64,000 bases of DNA from Gammaproteobacteria bacterium. Lineage in GTDB: Bacteria > Pseudomonadota > Gammaproteobacteria > Steroidobacterales > JABDMI01. The notes below the pieces were generated by a model that worked only from the letters and a program-made list of their open reading frames with translations, did no database searches and was not told the DNA's origin. Shown piece after piece: positions 10,351-47,061 of the stretch. Each line of letters begins with the position of its first letter. Position 1 is the stretch's first letter. The DNA is taken from the NCBI GenBank assembly GCA_013001575.1, contig JABDMI010000029.1, positions 4,792 through 68,791 on the forward strand, given 5' to 3'. The translations under genes and the position numbers were made by a program.

Positions 10351-11796
10351 ATGACAATGCACACGAAAACAGACGACAACTTGCTCCCGGTTATTGCCTT
10401 GGTCGGTCGACCCAATGTTGGCAAGTCCACTTTATTCAATTACCTGACGCGCACCCGTGATGCCTTGGTGGCGGACTTTCCCGGACTTACCCGGGACCGC
10501 CAATATGGCTACGGCAAAGTTGGGCCGCGTGAATACATCGTGGTGGATACCGGTGGTCTCAGTGGTGATCCGGAAAAACTGGATACCTTGATGGAAAAAC
10601 AGGTGCAGTTTGCCATTGCCGAAGCCGATTACGTGATCTTCTTGCTCGACGCCAAAGACGGTTTGACTGCTGCCGACGAAACGATCGCACGACAGTTGCG
10701 GCGTTTGGGTAAGCCGGTCATGGCCGTGATCAATAAGACTGAAGGTCTGGACTCGGATCGCGCCAGCATGGATTTTCATCAACTGGGATTTGAACATCTG
10801 GTTCCGGTATCCGCGGCGCATGGTCATCGTATTGGGCCGATGATGGAGTATTTGCTGGAAGAATTGATACCGCCAAGCGCAGTTGCACAAGATGTTGAAC
10901 CGGATGAGCAAAGTGATGCTCAAAAACCCATAAAAGTGGCAGTAATTGGCAGACCCAATGTGGGCAAATCGACCTTGATCAACCGCATGTTGGGTGAGGA
11001 GCGCCTGGTCGCCTATGACATGCCGGGTACCACGCGTGACAGTATTGCCGTACCTTTTACCCGGGAACAACAAGACTACATCATGATCGATACCGCCGGG
11101 GTGCGGCGTAAATCAAGAGTGGAAGAGGGTATTGAAAAATTCTCGATCATTAAAACGCTTCAGGCCATTGATCAGGCCAACGTGGTGATCGCGGTACTTG
11201 ATGCCAGTGAAGCCATTACCGATCAAGATGCCAGTTTGATGGGCCTGGCAGTACACCGTGGTCGTGCCATGGTGGTTGCGGTGAACAAGTGGGATCATTT
11301 AAGTGCCGATCAGCGTCAAACCATTCAACGGCAGATCGATCTCAAAATCGAATTTATGAAATTCGCCGACCTGCATTTTATTTCTGCCTTGCACGGTACC
11401 GGGGTAGGTGATCTATTCGAATCCATCCAAAATGCCTATCAAGCCGCGATGAAAACCCTGACCACAGCCGAATTGACGCGGGTTCTTGAACAGGCCGTGG
11501 TACAACATCAACCGCCCTTGGTACGTGGCCGGCGCATAAGACTACGCTACGTGCATCAAGGTGGTCGTAATCCGCCTATCCTGGTGATTCACGGGAATCA
11601 GACCGCTAAATTGCCGGGTGACTATCGACGCTATTTGATCAATACCTTTCGCAAGGCATTTTCCTTACAAGGCACGCCATTACGACTGGAGCTCAAGTCC
11701 TCGAAAAACCCGTTTGCCGGACGCAAGAATAAACTCACTGACCGACAGATCAAAAAACGTGAACGTTTGCGTAGACACGTCAAAAAGAAAAAATAA
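10351..11796 (+). CDS. der: Ribosome biogenesis GTPase Der (EngA)
   Basis: Two tandem G domains (GRPNVGKSTLFN and GRPNVGKSTLIN), a KH-like C-terminal domain and a basic tail. Confidence 0.95.
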   Translation: MTMHTKTDDNLLPVIALVGRPNVGKSTLFNYLTRTRDALVADFPGLTRDRQYGYGKVGPREYIVVDTGGLSGDPEKLDTLMEKQVQFAIAEADYVIFLLDAKDGLTAADETIARQLRRLGKPVMAVINKTEGLDSDRASMDFHQLGFEHLVPVSAAHGHRIGPMMEYLLEELIPPSAVAQDVEPDEQSDAQKPIKVAVIGRPNVGKSTLINRMLGEERLVAYDMPGTTRDSIAVPFTREQQDYIMIDTAGVRRKSRVEEGIEKFSIIKTLQAIDQANVVIAVLDASEAITDQDASLMGLAVHRGRAMVVAVNKWDHLSADQRQTIQRQIDLKIEFMKFADLHFISALHGTGVGDLFESIQNAYQAAMKTLTTAELTRVLEQAVVQHQPPLVRGRRIRLRYVHQGGRNPPILVIHGNQTAKLPGDYRRYLINTFRKAFSLQGTPLRLELKSSKNPFAGRKNKLTDRQIKKRERLRRHVKKKK

Positions 11797-25924: not shown

Positions 25925-28165
25925 TTAGTCTAAGTCAAGACCCAACTCTCTGATCACACGCAGTGTGATGTATTTCGAAGTTGTTGAGACTGGCAGACCT
26001 TTTTTACGCGCGTAACATTCGTTAGCACCACGATAGGTACATGGACCAATGATACCGTCAATGCGGCACTCGTAGCAGCCAACAGCTTTCAGGGCTGTTT
26101 GCAGCTTACGGATGTTTGCATTGGTCATGTTCACGTCACACAGAACCGGGCGCCATTCTGAACGCTCGTCTGAAACTTTAACGTTACGCGTAATAGTTTC
26201 GTATTCCGCAGGAATAGGAATGCTGCGTGTTGAAGCTGGAGTGTCAACGACTTGCTTGGATACAGTTTTGTAAACCGCAGGAACGGTTTCAGTACGGTAT
26301 GAAGCAGGTTTGGTGACAACGCGACGGGATACAGACTTGTACTCGGCAGGAATGTTGATCTCACGCTGTGAAGCTGGGGTATCAACCACTTGCTTGGTTA
26401 CCGTTTTGTATACCGCAGGAACCGGGATCTCGCGAGTTGAAGCAGGCTTGACCACAATTGTGGTGTCAACATTTGCATACTCGGCAGGAATCTCGATAGT
26501 GCGTGAAGACGCAGGTGTATCTACCACTTGCTTGGTTACTGTTTTGTAAACCGCAGGTACTGCAATTTCACGCGTTGTCGCAGGTTTGACCACTGTAGTA
26601 GTGTCAACGTTAGCGTACTCGGCTGGAATTTCGATAGTGCGGCTAGAAGCAGGCTTAACCAATACTTGTTTAGTAACTGTCGCATACTCAGCAGGAACTT
26701 CGATCTCACGAGTTGATTCAGGTGTGATCAACTTGGTGGTATCAACGTTTGCATACTCGGCAGGAATTTCGATAGTACGGCTGGAAGCAGGCTTAACCAA
26801 AACTTGACGGGTAACTGTACGGTACTCGGCAGGAATTTCTACCAAACACATTACTTCACCAGTGTCATTGGTTTTAGTTTCAACAACAGTTCCACCAAAA
26901 CGCTCAACAAAACTACCAACGGTTACGTTAGTTGCTGCTGAACCTACGCCAGAACCAGAACCACCACCGGTACCAGTAGAGCGTTTCCATTCTGTACGAG
27001 CAGGGCGAACCATAACTTGCTCAGACTCGGTGCGGTATTCGGCAGGAATAGTTTCGATACGGGTTGAGGCTGCACGAACCATTACACGCTCAGAACCAGG
27101 ACCGTATTGAGCAGGAATAACTTCAGTACGAGTTGTTGCTGGAGAAACCAGAACACGCTCGGTTACTGTTTTATATTCTGCAGGGATAGTTTCGATACGA
27201 GTAGATGCTGCACGAACCAAAACACGCTCTGTACCACTACCGTATTGAGCAGGAACTACTTCAGTACGAGTAGATGCCGGTTGAACCAGCACTTGCTCGG
27301 TTACAGTTTTGTAAGTAGCAGGAATGGTTTCGATACGAGTTGATGCTGCACGAACCAGGACACGCTCACTACCTTTGCCGTATTGGGCAGGGATAACTTC
27401 TGTGCGTGTTGAAGCTGGTTGAACCAGAACTTGCTCGGTTACAGTTTTGTAAGTAGCAGGAATGGTTTCGATGCGAGTTGACGCTTCACGTACCAGAACT
27501 TGATCTGACTCAGAGCCATATACTGCTGGAATAGGAATACGTTTTTCAAAGGCAGGCTTAACCAGTACTTGCTCGGTTACAGTTTTGTATGTAGCAGGAA
27601 TAGTTTCGATGCGCTCGGAAGCTTCACGACGAACTACCTTCTCGGATACTGTATTGTAGTTAGCAGGAATGATCACACGAGCGTAACACTCGCCTGGCTT
27701 GGCATTCGGTGGGAACAAGTCGTTGCTACCACAGTTAGGACCACAAACTTCCTTAACCATTGGCTCAACATTCTTGGCCATTGCCAATTCACGACGTAAA
27801 CGGTCGATCTCGGCTTTCAGAGGACCAGTGTTATCTACTGGAGCAGGTGCTGCAGCAACGGGAGCCGCTTGTTGCGAACCGGCAGCTTGACCAGCAGATT
27901 GTGAACCGGCTGATTGACCAGCGGATTGTGAACCGGCTGATTGACCAGCGGATTGTGAACCGGCTGATTGACCAGCAGATTGTGAACCGGCTGATTGACT
28001 AGCAGATTGTGAACCGGCTGATTGACTCGCTGATTGACTTGCTGCTGATTGTGATCCCGCTGACTGACTTGCCGCTGTCTGCGAGCCAGTGCTCGACTGA
28101 GCACAACCAGCCAATGCGACTGCGGCAGCAGAGACGAGCAGGATATTGACTGCACGAAGTTTCAT
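25925..28165 (-). CDS. Repeat-rich lipoprotein with a C-terminal peptidoglycan-binding (PG_binding_1-like) domain
   Basis: ATG at 28165 is preceded by GGAGGG; the tracked TTG at 28180 lies inside that RBS. Lipobox LAGC. The protein has SQ/AG linker repeats, a short coiled-coil segment (LKAEIDRLRRELAMAK), 20 [IV]PAxY 23-aa repeats, and C-terminal IRKLQTALKAVGCYECRIDGIIGPCT..ARKKGLP. Confidence 0.8.
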   Translation of the reverse strand: MKLRAVNILLVSAAAVALAGCAQSSTGSQTAASQSAGSQSAASQSASQSAGSQSASQSAGSQSAGQSAGSQSAGQSAGSQSAGQSAGSQSAGQAAGSQQAAPVAAAPAPVDNTGPLKAEIDRLRRELAMAKNVEPMVKEVCGPNCGSNDLFPPNAKPGECYARVIIPANYNTVSEKVVRREASERIETIPATYKTVTEQVLVKPAFEKRIPIPAVYGSESDQVLVREASTRIETIPATYKTVTEQVLVQPASTRTEVIPAQYGKGSERVLVRAASTRIETIPATYKTVTEQVLVQPASTRTEVVPAQYGSGTERVLVRAASTRIETIPAEYKTVTERVLVSPATTRTEVIPAQYGPGSERVMVRAASTRIETIPAEYRTESEQVMVRPARTEWKRSTGTGGGSGSGVGSAATNVTVGSFVERFGGTVVETKTNDTGEVMCLVEIPAEYRTVTRQVLVKPASSRTIEIPAEYANVDTTKLITPESTREIEVPAEYATVTKQVLVKPASSRTIEIPAEYANVDTTTVVKPATTREIAVPAVYKTVTKQVVDTPASSRTIEIPAEYANVDTTIVVKPASTREIPVPAVYKTVTKQVVDTPASQREINIPAEYKSVSRRVVTKPASYRTETVPAVYKTVSKQVVDTPASTRSIPIPAEYETITRNVKVSDERSEWRPVLCDVNMTNANIRKLQTALKAVGCYECRIDGIIGPCTYRGANECYARKKGLPVSTTSKYITLRVIRELGLDLD
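26153..27688 (-). repeat. 69-bp (23-codon) coding repeats in two blocks of ten units
   Basis: Block 1 covers aa 165-397 and block 2 covers aa 448-676 of the tracked ORF. Each block ends in a (T/S)EW(K/R) motif. Adjacent units alternate, giving a 46-aa super-repeat. Confidence 0.85.
27866..28090 (-). repeat. 27-bp near-perfect tandem repeat encoding an AGSQSAGQS-type linker
   Basis: The plus strand shows ggattgtgaaccggctgattgaccagc repeated head-to-tail several times with few substitutions. Confidence 0.85.
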
Positions 28166-28253
28166 TGTTTTACCCTCCAAGGTAAATCCCCAAATAAAAA
28201 AAATGGCACCGCCTATGAAAAAGACAGCACACCATTAGCTATAAAGCCTGTGT

Positions 28254-44382: not shown

Positions 44383-44850
44383 TTATTCAATCTTGCTCAA
44401 CAACATCGGCACACAAGGGATATGATCCTTTTCAAAATACTCACCGTTTTCCACAAATCCAAAATTCTTATAGACATCCACCGCCATTAAGGATGAGTTG
44501 ACCCGAAAGCTTTGGTTTTTAGCCTGTTCAGAACATTGCTCCAGATAAAAATCCCACATTTTTCGGGCGATACCGTGTCGTCGGTATGCTTTGTCCACAA
44601 ATAAATGATAAAGATGATTGGGTTCGTCGTTATATTCTTTAATCCCGATCACACCAACTATTTGCTCCTCATGTAAAGCTATAAAATATAAATAAGCTTC
44701 CGAAAAACGCAATTTGATCTTTTCAGGTGTGTTGTGTTGAATCATAAATGCCTATGCGATCTCCGGAAGCGATGGCAGGGCATTGCGAATCACCAATTTC
44801 GAGATCTCAGTCGCATCTTTTGCAGTGGCTAAGCGAATACTTATATGCAT
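44383..44850 (-). pseudogene. GNAT N-acetyltransferase interrupted by one in-frame TAG (codon 33)
   Basis: The minus-strand reading is MHISIRLATAKDATEISKLVIRNALPSLPEIA, then TAG, then AFMIQHNT... in the same frame. The Q/RxxGxA motif is YRRHGIARKM. The ATG at 44850 directly follows the TAA of the upstream CARF nuclease gene. Confidence 0.75.
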
Positions 44851-46026
44851 TTAGGTTGCACTTTTTAGCCAGACTTCGATCTGTGTGCCCAGGTTTTTGA
44901 GATCAGCGTTCGCGGCCACAAAAATATTCAGGTCATCGGCACGGCGTTGATTGCCTTCACTCAGGTTTTCAAGTGCAACCAGCATGGCCTTGCCGCGAAT
45001 GCCGCCCAACAGATCACGTAAACTGTCCAGCTTGTATATGGCCTTGAGACCATGCCCGGTCGAGGATTTTTTACGGCGAAAGCGCTGGGTTTTGCATTCG
45101 ATTATGTGCAGTGAGTTGTTGTACAAAAAAGCCACGTCGATCTCATTCGGGATTATGCCCGTCGGGGTCTGCCGATGGACTTTGACATTGCGCGCGACAT
45201 CCTGGATCTGCGGAATGTGCTGTTGCAGTTTACTGATCACATCAAACACATAAGCTTCCAGCCACCCGCCACTGGCATACCAGCGCGCCTGATAGCTTTT
45301 AAATACCAGTTCATTTTTCGTGTAGTGCAAAAATTTATGTTGCTGATAAATACCCAGTAACTGTTTTAATCCTTTGCTCTTCAGGTCATTGGGTTTGAGT
45401 CGCGTGCGATCTTCCCGGTCGGCGCGCGTGGCCAAACGGTTTAACACATTAAAGGCGTTGCTGATCTGCGGTGCGGCTTGGGCCAGAGCAAAGACCAGTT
45501 TTTTCTCCTCGCCTTCCAGCGGGCTGCGGTCAATGGCTACTGTGCCGGTTTTTACGACCTCGGCCCCTCGTACCCCCATGTAATCGTCAATACTGATCTT
45601 GTCGGCCAAATTGAAGTCTTTTCTTTTGCCGTCATTCACCCACATCAAAGTGTCGGTTTTAGGATGCACATAAAATATCGGGAGATTTGCTGCGCGAAAC
45701 ACATGACAGGCTGCAATATTCATTGCTTTGGTCCCGCCAGCAGCGTTTAGTGTTAATGCCGCGTTTTTGTAGGTATTGAGTAATTCCTGCATGGATTTCT
45801 GGATCGTGTGCACATCCCAGGCGTCTTGTATCTGCCAATCAATAACCGGGATTTTATGTTTTTTCAGGGTTGTGCTTAACCATTCCACTTTTTCCTGGAT
45901 ATCAGGGCTGGCAACAATAATGACCTGATGTGGACGCGTGCGTTTATCCAACAGAGGTGTGATGATGGTATTGGGCTGATCAGTGATCAAACACACGTGA
46001 ATACGTTTTTTCTTGGTCTGTGACAT
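44851..46026 (-). CDS. Card1/Can2-like CARF-domain plus PD-(D/E)xK nuclease (DUF1887-like)
   Basis: N-terminal Rossmann-like CARF signatures (RIHVCLITDQPN and LNAAGGTKAM). C-terminal restriction-endonuclease-like motif GGWLEAYVFD ... NEIDVAFLYNNSLHIIECKT (D-x13-E-x-K). The start at 46026 is preferred because the tracked TTG at 46074 lies inside the upstream terminator T-run. Confidence 0.7.
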   Translation of the reverse strand: MSQTKKKRIHVCLITDQPNTIITPLLDKRTRPHQVIIVASPDIQEKVEWLSTTLKKHKIPVIDWQIQDAWDVHTIQKSMQELLNTYKNAALTLNAAGGTKAMNIAACHVFRAANLPIFYVHPKTDTLMWVNDGKRKDFNLADKISIDDYMGVRGAEVVKTGTVAIDRSPLEGEEKKLVFALAQAAPQISNAFNVLNRLATRADREDRTRLKPNDLKSKGLKQLLGIYQQHKFLHYTKNELVFKSYQARWYASGGWLEAYVFDVISKLQQHIPQIQDVARNVKVHRQTPTGIIPNEIDVAFLYNNSLHIIECKTQRFRRKKSSTGHGLKAIYKLDSLRDLLGGIRGKAMLVALENLSEGNQRRADDLNIFVAANADLKNLGTQIEVWLKSAT

Positions 46027-46072
46027 GGCCTCAATGGCTGTTTGGTGTTTTGCCGGATTAATCCAGTGTAAC

Positions 46073-46098
46073 AAAAAAGAGCGAACCGAAGTTCGCTC
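46073..46098 (-). terminator. Rho-independent terminator (UUCG tetraloop)
   Basis: The minus strand reads GAGCGAAC-TTCG-GTTCGCTC followed by TTTTTTG, 43 nt after the stop of the 306-aa secreted protein gene. Confidence 0.85.
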
Positions 46099-46140
46099 TC
46101 TGGATCAAGATAAATCTACTGACTTTATTCATATCCGGGA

Positions 46141-47061
46141 TTATTGAATGCCTTGCCCATAATGACGATAACGGCTATTGGGTGGCGGCGGTACAAATCC
46201 GTAGTTGCCATAAGATCCTGACCAAAAACGGTTGCGCTCACGTTTGTTGTATCCGCAACGACTGATGCCCATTTCACACAAAGTGGCCTTACGCTCGTAT
46301 TTAATAAAGTGTTTGACCGCGGCGTATTTTTCAGCTTTAAAATGCACCCGACGTGAAGGTGAATAGCGATTGTCACCGTAACCCGTGCCCAGCTCATCCA
46401 GCGCTTCTGACTGGTAACCACCTTTGGATTGTGGTGCACGTTTCTGTGCTGAACCCGATGGCGACTGTTTGCGTGATCCTGAATCACCTCTACCTTTATA
46501 AGCATAGTCGTCGTAGTCCGGCTCTCTATACCAGCGACCATTTTTCTCTTTGAACACAGCGACCGCGATCACACCCATGGCCGAACGATCCCCAAAGGTC
46601 TGGTCGGAATACGAATCCGGTACATCGGTGAAATAGAATTCGTTGATTCGATTCTTGCCACTTCTCCAGCCGTCATAAGTAGCCGCCTGGTAAGGATTAA
46701 GAATGTACATGCGTTCTTTGGCTTTGAGTTTAGACTTTTTACCACTGATGATATTGCGACCGTCAACCGCAATTACCAGGCCAATTCGCTGACGTGTGTT
46801 GTTTTTCACCCTGATGCCATACGACTTGCCGTCTTTGGCTTCCAGATAAGCACGTTTCACGCTGTATTGACCGCTATTGATCGGGTATTTTTTAAAGCGT
46901 CGCCCGTAATCATTCACCACTTGCACATCCACCAGTTTGCCGGCATGTGGATAAGCGATGCGATCATTGTCGTGACCCGCCATTAATTGCGGTACTGCAA
47001 ACACGGCGATCAAGGTGAGCAATACAATAAAATAATTATTAACTTTGTTGGGTGTTTTCAT
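46141..47061 (-). CDS. Secreted protein of unknown function
   Basis: ATG at 47061 is preceded by AGGAG with a 6-nt spacer. Signal peptide MKTPNKVNNYFIVLLTLIAVFAVPQLMA. The C-terminal half is basic and Tyr/Gly-rich. No family was recognised. Confidence 0.6.
   Translation of the reverse strand: MKTPNKVNNYFIVLLTLIAVFAVPQLMAGHDNDRIAYPHAGKLVDVQVVNDYGRRFKKYPINSGQYSVKRAYLEAKDGKSYGIRVKNNTRQRIGLVIAVDGRNIISGKKSKLKAKERMYILNPYQAATYDGWRSGKNRINEFYFTDVPDSYSDQTFGDRSAMGVIAVAVFKEKNGRWYREPDYDDYAYKGRGDSGSRKQSPSGSAQKRAPQSKGGYQSEALDELGTGYGDNRYSPSRRVHFKAEKYAAVKHFIKYERKATLCEMGISRCGYNKRERNRFWSGSYGNYGFVPPPPNSRYRHYGQGIQ

What the first reader, a model, noticed from the sequence alone, without database searches (positions are those of the whole stretch)
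44851..46074. Orphan Card1/Can2-like CARF nuclease in housekeeping DNA, with no CRISPR or cyclase partner in 64 kb
Seen in the sequence:
- The roughly 391-aa product has an N-terminal Rossmann-like region carrying the two CARF hallmarks: a beta1 strand RIHVCLITDQPN, and a GGTK loop LNAAGGTKAM.
- The C-terminal PD-(D/E)xK module looks intact: GGWLEAYVFD ... EID-x12-ECK.
- No cas gene, repeat array, Cas10/Palm cyclase, CD-NTase or ring nuclease is visible anywhere in this window.
- The flanks are hslO/yciI on one side and murI/prmC on the other.
- The gene is insulated upstream by a strong UUCG terminator.
- A perfect 10-bp palindrome, GGATTAATCC (46055-46064), lies between that terminator and the start codon.
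- The stop codon abuts the ATG of a GNAT gene.

Established knowledge: this domain architecture is that of the cyclic-oligoadenylate-activated type III CRISPR effectors Card1 and Can2.

Inference: this is either a trans-acting effector of a distant signal synthase, or a stand-alone ligand-gated nuclease module with an unknown trigger.
Basis: partly seen in the sequence, partly recalled or inferred. Interest (0 to 1): 0.72.

Follow-up and report, generated by a model that had tools for sequence, protein, structure and literature searches.

The report
Unlinked Can2/Card1 CARF nuclease gene
This gene encodes a well-preserved member of the known Can2/Card1 family of signal-activated defence nucleases that sits among housekeeping genes, far from any CRISPR locus, in an uncultured marine bacterium; such "orphans" are already known, but this one still has the pocket that binds the CRISPR alarm molecule.

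Summary
Window 44851-46026 (-) encodes a 391-aa protein with a Card1-type CARF domain and a Card1-type PD-(D/E)xK nuclease domain. Support comes from Pfam, PADLOC, PDB sequence matches and an AlphaFold model (TM 0.89 to VC1899, 0.77 to SthCan2-cA4).

No cas gene, cyclase or CRISPR array is detectable in the 64 kb. The gene is compositionally native. It lies in the same prmC-murI-hyp-[gene]-yciI-hslO slot in five further contigs of an uncultured gammaproteobacterial lineage. It evolves as slowly as HslO and more slowly than PrmC or MurI.

The catalytic residues are kept. The cA4-contact residues defined for SthCan2 are also kept, unlike in the known orphan VC1899, whose pocket is degenerate. 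The nearest relatives outside the clade (34-42% identity) all sit inside type III CRISPR-Cas loci.

The palindrome is chance and is not conserved. The GNAT is a low-GC, species-specific insert with an in-frame stop, not a partner.

Best reading: a functional cA4-type-gated Can2 acting in trans.

This is a new member of a known kind, of modest interest.

The parts
44851..46026 (-). CDS of the 391-aa Can2/Card1-family CARF-nuclease, including the TAA stop at 44851-44853
   Evidence: ORF. The 391-aa gene call is identical in NCBI GCA_013043715.1 and two Logan assemblies. PADLOC CARF4--CARF_PDDEXK gives E=1.2e-108. PDB matches: 1xmx at 1.1e-53 and 7bdv at 4.7e-35.
45577..46005 (-). CARF domain (aa 8-150) with ligand-pocket residues T15, D16, S40, G97-G98-T99-K100 and Y119
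   Evidence: Pfam PF23400 at 7e-15. Pocket residues were mapped onto SthCan2 S19, D20, T42, K99 and Y118. T15, D16, K100 and Y119 are invariant and position 40 is S or T in the 12-member clade.
44863..45291 (-). PD-(D/E)xK nuclease domain (aa 246-388) with catalytic E295, D297, E310 and K312, plus the GGWLE motif (aa 253-257)
   Evidence: Pfam PF09002 at 1.3e-29. E295/D297 correspond to SthCan2 E276/D278, and E310/K312 to the ECK motif. These residues are invariant in all 118 sequences of the alignment (window protein, VC1899, SthCan2 and 115 homologues of at least 330 aa).
46076..46101 (-). Intrinsic terminator (11-bp stem, UUCG loop, T-tract) ending the upstream DUF7918-like gene
   Evidence: Terminator scan. 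The stem-loop is conserved with compensatory changes in L004, L013 and L014.
46065..46078 (-). TTTTTTGTTACACT, a motif directly after the terminator that is conserved in all four lineages compared. It may be a weak -35-like element or part of the terminator; its function is unknown.
   Evidence: Comparison of upstream regions. No consensus sigma-70 promoter was found between the terminator and the start codon.
46055..46064 (.). Palindrome GGATTAATCC: real, but a chance feature and not part of the system
   Evidence: There are 69 ten-bp palindromes in the window against about 62 expected. It is not conserved in L004, L013 or L014.
44383..44850 (-). GNAT acetyltransferase gene interrupted by an in-frame TAG at 44754-44752. 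It is species-specific, low in GC, and not a partner.
   Evidence: Translation. Pfam PF13673 at 7e-29, and the read-through version extends the GNAT match to the profile start. GC is 37.7%. It is absent from L004, L013 and L014.

Best explanation
The gene encodes a functional Can2/Card1-type effector: a homodimeric protein with an N-terminal CARF sensor and a C-terminal PD-(D/E)xK nuclease.

Proposed mechanism, by homology with SthCan2, TsuCan2 and Card1:
1. A cyclic tetra-adenylate-type ligand binds across the CARF dimer interface. The contacts are T15, D16, S40, K100 and Y119.
2. Binding repositions the two nuclease domains.
3. The Mn2+/Mg2+-dependent active site (E295, D297, E310, K312) then nicks or degrades DNA and ssRNA non-specifically.
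4. This slows phage replication and host growth.

The gene is not a recent arrival. It is a compositionally native, vertically inherited resident of a fixed housekeeping slot (prmC-murI-DUF7918-like-[can2]-yciI-hslO-gatBA) in an uncultured marine gammaproteobacterial lineage. It is kept under purifying selection comparable to its housekeeping neighbours.

Its activating signal is not made within 64 kb. The most likely source is a Cas10-containing type III CRISPR-Cas locus elsewhere in the genome, acting in trans.

Shown: family membership, intact catalytic and ligand residues, the unlinked context, synteny and constraint. Inferred: cA4 as the ligand, dimerisation, nuclease specificity, and the existence of a distant synthase.
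For: - Family and fold. Pfam CARF_Card1 and Card1_endonuc both score above threshold. PADLOC CARF4--CARF_PDDEXK gives 1e-108. There are full-length matches to VC1899 (1e-53) and SthCan2 (5e-35). The AF2 model has pLDDT 94 and TM 0.89, 0.77 and 0.81 to 1xmx, 7bdv and 9u49.
- Ligand pocket. The side-chain cA4 contacts of SthCan2 are S19, D20, T42, K99, Y118 and S121 (PMC7969007). They map to T15, D16, S40, K100, Y119 and P122. P122 is also the residue in the CRISPR-linked proteobacterial Can2s. T15, D16, K100 and Y119 are invariant in the clade.
- Catalytic residues are invariant.
- Origin. The closest relatives outside the clade with readable context (P0014, P0020, P0039, P0042, P0072) are 5 of 5 inside type III-A/D or III-B loci.
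- Constraint. Amino-acid identity to orthologues is 73-75%, against 61-64% for PrmC, MurI and YciI and 70-77% for HslO. dN is 0.15-0.22 with saturated dS. The CARF domain is 75% identical within the clade.
- Native composition. GC is 48.3% and GC3 55.9%, within the range of neighbouring genes.
- Plausibility of action in trans. 133 cyclase-positive type III loci lack any effector and are enriched in multi-locus genomes (PMC11229360).
Against: - No cas10, cas7, cas6, cas1/2, ring nuclease or CRISPR array lies in the 64-kb window or in about 20 kb around four orthologues.
- Type III loci are usually patchy and mobile, whereas this gene looks like a stable lineage core gene. About 12 GatB sequences at >=80% identity compare with 12 clade members.
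- That pattern is the one shown by VC1899, which does not respond to cA4 (PMC7969007). It argues for some CRISPR-independent role.
- Position 15 is Thr in all clade members, but Ser in nearly all CRISPR-linked homologues.
- No biochemical data exist for this clade.
Confidence: 0.55

Rival explanations
1. A domesticated, CRISPR-independent nuclease. Like VC1899 in Vibrio, the protein was cut loose from a type III system long ago and is kept as a lineage core gene for another role, such as a stress or repair nuclease or a stand-alone sensor. Its trigger would be a ligand not made by Cas10. The pocket is conserved because the new ligand is chemically similar: an oligoadenylate or another phosphorylated nucleotide.
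For: - The housekeeping position is fixed in six contigs spanning 70-100% protein identity.
- Constraint equals that of housekeeping neighbours.
- No cas genes lie nearby.
- There is precedent for long-lived orphans: VC1899-type P0100 next to fadR/nhaB/dsbB and P0062 next to queF/murB.
- Full-length NJ bootstrap groups the window clade with the VC1899-like orphans in 143 of 200 replicates.
- Thr replaces Ser at position 15 throughout the clade.
Against: - The two orphan lineages whose housekeeping context was confirmed have altered pockets: the VC1899 type has D/D/CGLR/V and P0062 has H/G/GGTR/Y. This clade keeps the canonical S/T-S/T-GGTK-Y set.
- The grouping with VC1899 is not robust. Bootstrap support is 47% for the CARF domain alone and 3% for the nuclease domain alone.
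- The CARF domain is closer to CRISPR-linked homologues (41% identity) than to the VC1899 clade (29%).
Confidence: 0.3
2. An effector shared with a non-CRISPR signal synthase encoded elsewhere in the genome, such as a CBASS CD-NTase, an mCpol-type minimal polymerase, or another cyclase. It would respond to cA3, cA4 or a related oligonucleotide.
For: - A related CARF nuclease, Cdn1, is activated by more than one cAn species (PMC12825302; structures 9u49 and 8z4i matched).
- The pocket is intact while cas genes are absent locally.
Against: - No CD-NTase, SMODS or other cyclase hit was found in the window by PADLOC.
- Every relative with a canonical pocket and readable context is in a Cas10-containing locus.
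- No member of this family examined here was found next to a CBASS-type cyclase.
Confidence: 0.1
3. A decaying relic or pseudogene with no current function.
For: - It is unlinked from any CRISPR locus.
- VC1899 was described as possibly a degenerate enzyme 'cast adrift' (PMC7969007).
- No recognisable strong promoter or Shine-Dalgarno sequence is present in the orthologous upstream regions.
Against: - The reading frame is intact in all 12 clade members.
- Mean column identity is 82%, with all catalytic and pocket residues invariant or conservatively substituted.
- dN is lower than for PrmC, MurI and YciI over the same divergence, with saturated dS.
Confidence: 0.03

Closest known systems
Can2 (SthCan2 from Sulfobacillus thermosulfidooxidans, PDB 7BDV; TsuCan2) and Card1 (Treponema succinifaciens, PDB 6WXW): cA4-activated type III CRISPR ancillary nucleases
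   Same: Single CARF domain plus PD-(D/E)xK nuclease architecture of similar length. Both Pfam domains are present. The catalytic E-x-D...E-x-K residues and the cA4-contact residues S/T19, D20, S/T42, K99 and Y118 are the same. The model superposes on cA4-bound SthCan2 with TM 0.77-0.78.
   Different: It is not encoded in or near a type III CRISPR-Cas locus, at least within 64 kb. It sits in a conserved housekeeping slot and appears vertically inherited. Sequence identity is only 23-24% to SthCan2 and 34-42% to the CRISPR-linked proteobacterial Can2s. Thr replaces Ser at the first pocket position.
VC1899 of Vibrio cholerae (PDB 1XMX), founding DUF1887 member and published orphan CARF protein
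   Same: It is the best structural and sequence match in the PDB (TM 0.89, E=1e-53, 32% identity). It is also an orphan in a conserved gammaproteobacterial housekeeping neighbourhood with an intact nuclease active site.
   Different: VC1899's ligand pocket is degenerate (D9, D34, R96, V115) and the protein is not regulated by cA4 (PMC7969007). The window protein keeps the canonical polar and basic pocket (T15, S40, K100, Y119). Pfam still recognises its CARF domain, whereas VC1899-type proteins score only PF09002. The phylogenetic link between the two orphan clades is unresolved.
Can1 (Thermus thermophilus TTHB155-type, PDB 6SCE)
   Same: Related CARF and PD-(D/E)xK modules, activated by cA4. 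Foldseek E=1e-14.
   Different: Can1 is a monomeric fusion of two CARF domains, a nuclease-like domain and a nuclease domain (614 aa). The window protein has the single-CARF architecture of 391 aa.
Cdn1 (PDB 9U49/8Z4I), a CARF-domain nuclease activated by cA3 and cA4
   Same: Same overall fold (TM 0.81 to the cA4 complex; sequence E=2e-11).
   Different: Only 18% identity. Cdn1 is CRISPR-associated and described as a ribonuclease with broad cAn binding (PMC12825302). Nothing here indicates dual activation.

Membership tests
Can2/Card1 (CARF4 clade; Pfam PF23400 + PF09002) | N-terminal Card1-type CARF (Rossmann-like) domain | tested here: met
   PF23400 scores 55.7 bits against a cut-off of 24.6, covering aa 9-149. 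The AF2 model has a beta-alpha Rossmann pattern over aa 8-130.
Can2/Card1 (CARF4 clade; Pfam PF23400 + PF09002) | C-terminal PD-(D/E)xK nuclease domain with catalytic E-x-D ... E-x-K | tested here: met
   PF09002 scores 102.9 bits against 26.4. E295/D297 and E310/K312 align with SthCan2 E276/D278 and the ECK motif, and are invariant in the 118-sequence alignment.
Can2/Card1 (CARF4 clade; Pfam PF23400 + PF09002) | Conserved cA4-contact residues (SthCan2 S19, T42, K99, Y118; also D20) | tested here: met
   The residues are T15, S40, K100 and Y119, plus D16. They are identical or conservatively substituted and fixed in the clade.
Can2/Card1 (CARF4 clade; Pfam PF23400 + PF09002) | Full-length structural similarity to solved Can2/Card1 | tested here: met
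   Foldseek gives 7bdv E=3e-29 with TM 0.77-0.78, 6xl1 with TM 0.70, and 8bao and 8q3z also matched.
Can2/Card1 (CARF4 clade; Pfam PF23400 + PF09002) | Encoded within or next to a type III CRISPR-Cas locus | tested here: not met
   No cas, Cas10 or array in the 64-kb window, nor in the 4-21 kb of sequence held around each orthologue. Presence elsewhere in the genome is not testable with these tools. This is an association rather than a structural criterion: VC1899, the founding member of DUF1887, also fails it.
Can2/Card1 (CARF4 clade; Pfam PF23400 + PF09002) | cA4-dependent, metal-dependent DNA/RNA cleavage; homodimer | not testable with these tools
   Requires biochemistry. Only a monomer model was predicted.
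VC1899-type degenerate orphan (Vibrionaceae DUF1887) | Housekeeping, non-CRISPR genomic context conserved in the lineage | tested here: met
   The slot prmC-murI-hyp-[gene]-yciI-hslO is seen in L001-L004, L013, L014 and L021.
VC1899-type degenerate orphan (Vibrionaceae DUF1887) | Acidic or hydrophobic replacement of the cA4 pocket (D9, D34, R96, V115) | tested here: not met
   The window clade has T, S/T, K and Y at these positions. The VC1899 clade has D, D, R and V.
VC1899-type degenerate orphan (Vibrionaceae DUF1887) | Phylogenetic placement within or sister to the VC1899 clade | tested here: inconclusive
   NJ bootstrap support is 71% for the full length, 47% for CARF only and 3% for the nuclease only.
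Can1 | Monomer with two CARF domains plus nuclease-like and nuclease domains (about 600 aa) | tested here: not met
   There is a single CARF domain in 391 aa. The match to 6sce has TM 0.55 normalised to the query and 0.37 normalised to the target.

The most novel reading that the evidence does not exclude
An uncultured gammaproteobacterial lineage has turned a Can2 effector into a vertically inherited core gene that still senses a cA4-like nucleotide but no longer depends on CRISPR-Cas. The signal would come from a non-Cas10 source, such as an endogenous stress pathway, another defence cyclase, or phage-derived oligoadenylates. The clade may also be the evolutionary intermediate between CRISPR-linked Can2 and the degenerate VC1899 orphans.
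Probability: 0.2. Interest if true: 0.7.

Novelty: new member of a known kind. Interest (0 to 1): 0.35.

Why it matters
Type III CRISPR signalling is usually studied with effectors encoded next to Cas10. Whether unlinked CARF effectors are still wired to that signal is an open question.

The only characterised orphan of this family, VC1899, has a ruined pocket and is inert to cA4. It therefore cannot answer the question.

This clade offers a cleaner test case. It is an orphan with an intact pocket and active site, held under housekeeping-level constraint at a fixed chromosomal site. Three outcomes are possible:
- If its genomes carry a type III locus, it is a simple documented example of an effector encoded in trans.
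- If they do not, it would point to CRISPR-independent oligoadenylate signalling.
- In either case the protein is a straightforward candidate for cA4-binding and nuclease assays.

Tried and rejected
1. The palindrome GGATTAATCC as an operator. Rejected: there are 69 such 10-bp palindromes in the window against about 62 expected, and it is not conserved in orthologous upstream regions.
2. The GNAT as a functional partner. Rejected: it is absent from orthologous loci, has 37.7% GC, and carries an in-frame TAG.
3. The conserved upstream 306-aa secreted protein as a partner. Rejected: it belongs to a very widespread family (3550 hits, some annotated DUF7918/PF25534) found far beyond the 12-member nuclease clade. 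It is separated by a terminator, and it is absent next to other Can2 genes.
4. One ancient orphan super-clade containing VC1899. Full-length NJ bootstrap gave 71%, but support collapses by domain (47% and 3%), so this is left unresolved.
5. dN/dS. dS is saturated, so only dN comparisons with neighbouring genes are reported.
6. Finding more clade members. The genome-contig scan gave only 2 loci and the metagenome-contig scan gave 1. The lineage is rare in the databases.
7. Taxonomy through GatB. Only uncultured Gammaproteobacteria were found at >=78% identity. The nearest named taxa are Acidihalobacter, Ectothiorhodospira and Steroidobacteraceae at 75-77%.
8. The 2020 CARF classification paper could not be retrieved. 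The 2025 CRISPR classification paper had nothing on Can2 orphans.
9. A literature search for the run and assembly accessions found nothing usable. One term in that search (PRJNA609151) was a guess of mine and its hits are disregarded.
10. NCBIfam has no model matching the protein.
Full report
**What is there**

The ORF listed at 44851-46074 (-) is real. Its biologically sensible start is ATG 46026, giving 391 aa (MSQTKKKRIHVC...). This length is called for the identical protein in NCBI assembly GCA_013043715.1 ('MAG: DUF1887 family protein [Gammaproteobacteria bacterium]') and in two Logan assemblies. Homologue N-termini also align there. The alternative start, TTG 46074, lies inside the T-tract of the upstream terminator.

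**Family assignment**

Several independent searches agree:
- Pfam finds CARF_Card1 (PF23400, aa 9-149, 55.7 bits against a 24.6 cut-off) and Card1_endonuc (PF09002, aa 246-388, 102.9 bits against 26.4).
- PADLOC's best model is CARF4--CARF_PDDEXK, full length, E=1.2e-108.
- Against PDB sequences the best matches are VC1899 of Vibrio cholerae (1xmx, E=1.1e-53, full length), Can2 of Sulfobacillus thermosulfidooxidans (7bdv, 4.7e-35), Card1 (6wxw) and Cdn1 (8z4i).
- An AlphaFold2 model built on a 58-sequence alignment is confident (pLDDT 94.1, pTM 0.91).
- Foldseek against the PDB returns 1xmx (TM 0.89), cA4-bound SthCan2 (TM 0.77-0.78), Cdn1-cA4 (0.81), Card1, other Can2 structures and Can1.

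Both folds are confirmed.

**Catalytic and ligand residues**

The Can2 paper (PMC7969007) defines three relevant things:
- the nuclease residues: SthCan2 E276/D278, and TsuCan2 E302/K304 in the ECK motif;
- the cA4 side-chain contacts: S19, D20, T42, K99, Y118 and S121;
- the four contacts shared with Can1: S19, T42, K99 and Y118.

The same paper shows that VC1899 has D9, D34, R96 and V115 at those four positions and is not regulated by cA4.

Numbering was checked against the paper for both the 7bdv and 1xmx alignments. I then used a 118-sequence MAFFT alignment.
- The window protein has T15, D16, S40, K100 (in GGTK) and Y119.
- Its catalytic residues are E295, D297, E310 and K312.
- S121 corresponds to P122, which is also the residue in the CRISPR-linked proteobacterial homologues ('HPE').
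- Within the 12-member clade, T15, D16, K100 and Y119 are invariant and position 40 is S or T.
- VC1899-type sequences (P0095, P0096, P0100, P0106, P0112) show D/D/CGLR/V. P0062 and P0064 show H or Y, G or A, GGTR and Y. Of these, housekeeping context was confirmed for P0100 and P0062.

This orphan therefore keeps the canonical pocket, unlike the characterised one.

**The surroundings**

No cas gene, cyclase or array could be detected:
- PADLOC on the 64 other ORFs of at least 70 aa in the window returned only eight generic families: mad2 twice, SspA/DndA (a cysteine-desulfurase-type hit), LeoA/LeoBC, mad8, PDC-M71B and TPR. No Cas protein, Cas10, CD-NTase or ring nuclease was found.
- phmmer with 21 Cas and accessory proteins taken from related type III loci found nothing at E<=1 in the six-frame translation.
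- TRF found no CRISPR-like array. The only large tandem repeats lie inside a coding ORF at 25925-28180.
- A k-mer array detector found nothing in the window, but did find arrays in four CRISPR-linked loci.

The precomputed Pfam annotation of the identical NCBI contig confirms the flanks. On one side are GatCAB, HslO (HSP33) and YciI. On the other are a 306-aa protein without a Pfam hit, MurI, PrmC and a CBS-PALP enzyme.

The terminator at 46101-46076 is confirmed. It belongs to the upstream 306-aa gene.

**Features that do not hold up**

The palindrome GGATTAATCC is at 46055-46064. However, 69 perfect 10-bp palindromes occur in the window against about 62 expected, and orthologous upstream regions lack it. 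What is conserved there is the terminator, with compensatory stem changes, and the motif TTTTTTGTTACACT immediately after it. No consensus promoter was found between the terminator and the start codon, and three orthologues lack a visible Shine-Dalgarno sequence. Expression may therefore be low or depend on read-through; this is inference.

The TAA|ATG junction with the 'GNAT gene' opens only a 32-codon fragment, closed by an in-frame TAG at 44754-44752. The GNAT domain ORF restarts at 44745. Reading through the stop extends the GNAT profile match to its start. This GNAT has 37.7% GC, against 48.3% for the nuclease gene and 46.8% for the window. It is missing from the orthologous loci. It is a species-specific and probably defunct insert, not a partner.

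**Evolutionary context**

The protein search found 11 further close homologues (68-83% identity, all from metagenomes). There is then a gap down to 42% identity or less.

Five further contigs with readable context show the same order: prmC-murI-306-aa gene-nuclease, followed by yciI-hslO-gatBA where the contig extends far enough. These are L004, L013, L014 and L021, plus the window's own species in L001-L003.

Over the same genome pairs, amino-acid identities are as follows:

| Protein | Identity to orthologues |
|---|---|
| Nuclease | 73-75% |
| PrmC, MurI, YciI | 61-64% |
| 306-aa protein | 64-65% |
| HslO | 70-77% |
| GatB, GatA | 83-87% |

dN is 0.15-0.22 for the nuclease. It is about 0.18-0.19 for hslO and 0.32-0.35 for prmC, murI and yciI. 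dS is saturated. Within the clade the CARF domain is 75% identical, the nuclease domain 84% and the middle region 63%. GC and GC3 are typical of neighbouring genes. The gene is therefore an old, native, constrained resident.

GatB places the organism in an uncultured gammaproteobacterial lineage. About 12 sequences have at least 80% identity, and the nearest named genera are at 75-77%. In the next-closest lineage (GatB 78%), mreBCD-gatCAB-hslO is conserved, but the region beyond hslO differs and no nuclease lies within 10 kb.

Outside the clade, every homologue with a canonical pocket whose context I could read lies inside a type III CRISPR-Cas locus:
- P0014 (Csm);
- P0020 (Cmr, cas1/cas2);
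- P0039, Methylomarinum vadi (next to a CARF-adenosine deaminase and cas1/cas2);
- P0042, Leucothrix arctica (Cmr);
- P0072, Methylomonas paludis (Csm).

P0100, a VC1899-type protein, sits between an MCP gene and fadR-nhaB-dsbB. P0062 sits next to queF, sulP and murB. Both are orphans with altered pockets.

The window clade is monophyletic (100% bootstrap). Full-length NJ groups it with the VC1899-like sequences in 71% of replicates. Support falls to 47% with the CARF domain alone and 3% with the nuclease domain alone. I treat that link as unresolved.

The conserved upstream 306-aa protein belongs to a very widespread family (3550 hits; some members carry PF25534/DUF7918). It has a signal-peptide-like N-terminus and is separated by a terminator. 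It is not a dedicated partner.

**Interpretation**

Membership of the Can2/Card1 family is secure on every structural criterion tested. The only criterion not met is physical linkage to a type III locus. The family's founding member, VC1899, also fails that criterion.

The intact pocket, the intact active site and strong purifying selection argue for a working ligand-gated nuclease rather than a relic. The most economical ligand is cA4. The most economical source is a Cas10 complex encoded elsewhere. This is consistent with the published inference that many cyclase-positive type III loci rely on effectors encoded elsewhere in the genome (PMC11229360).

Against this, the stable, core-gene-like behaviour resembles VC1899 and suggests a CRISPR-independent role is possible. 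I could not scan the rest of the genome. The two readings therefore remain at roughly 0.55 and 0.30. A non-Cas10 synthase is at about 0.10 and a dead relic at about 0.03.

**Novelty and score**

Orphan CARF and DUF1887 genes have been described since 2014 (PMC4012209). VC1899 was explicitly discussed as an orphan in 2021 (PMC7969007). This is a new member of a known kind.

The modestly interesting point is that this orphan clade keeps the cA4 pocket and is conserved like a housekeeping gene. That makes it a good test case for in-trans or CRISPR-independent oligoadenylate signalling. Interest: 0.35.

Noticed in passing
window 44383-44850 (-): A GNAT acetyltransferase gene is interrupted by an in-frame TAG at 44754-44752. 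Its GC content is 37.7% against 46.8% for the window. It is present only in this species and missing from the orthologous loci L004, L013 and L014. It looks like a recently inserted and already disabled gene.
   Followed up: yes
window 46141-47061 (-): A 306-aa protein with a signal-peptide-like N-terminus has no Pfam hit in this copy. It belongs to a very widespread family (3550 hits at E<=1e-3; some members carry PF25534/DUF7918), found in Gammaproteobacteria, Deltaproteobacteria, Competibacteraceae and the Riftia endosymbiont. Its function is unknown.
   Followed up: partly
window 46065-46078 (-); L004, L013, L014 upstream of the nuclease gene: The motif TTTTTTGTTACACT directly after the terminator is conserved across four lineages, although the rest of the short leader is not. 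The terminator stem shows compensatory changes. This may be a promoter element or a protein-binding site.
   Followed up: partly
window 25925-28180 (-): A 751-aa predicted lipoprotein or secreted protein has an N-terminal SQSAG low-complexity run and about 20 tandem copies of a 23-aa unit (69- and 138-nt periods in TRF) of the type 'ASTRIETIPATYKTVTEQVLV'. It was not identified further.
   Followed up: no
L016 9355-10548 (GCA_016745035.1); also L017: Another orphan Can2 homologue (P0062, 35% identity) lies next to queF in a housekeeping context (murB, nadC, sulP). Its pocket is partly altered (H, G, GGTR, Y). P0064 has a similar pocket (Y, A, GGTR, Y). These may be a further independent orphan lineage.
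   Followed up: partly
L015 4645-9182: A VC1899-like homologue with a degenerate pocket (P0073) lies near a Cas_NE0113-type CARF protein and several large proteins without Pfam hits. No Cas10 was found in the 12 kb read. This may be an uncharacterised CARF-containing defence island.
   Followed up: no
L005 7589-11152 (Methylomarinum vadi): The CRISPR-linked Can2 sits directly downstream of a 743-aa CARF-adenosine deaminase (Cad1-like) gene. The pair is flanked by two ParDE/RelB-ParE toxin-antitoxin pairs and two cas1/cas2 pairs.
   Followed up: no
L013 11920-15455: In this orthologous MAG contig, about 3.5 kb is inserted between yciI and hslO. This again marks the nuclease-yciI-hslO junction as a variable insertion spot.
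   Followed up: no
window, genes not mapped individually (PADLOC on alignment A2): PADLOC gave strong hits to SspA/DndA (E about 1e-160) and weaker ones to LeoA/LeoBC. From the sequences, these are probably the housekeeping IscS at 1007-2260 and the Der/EngA GTPase at 10351-11796, not defence genes. The mapping was not verified gene by gene.
   Followed up: no
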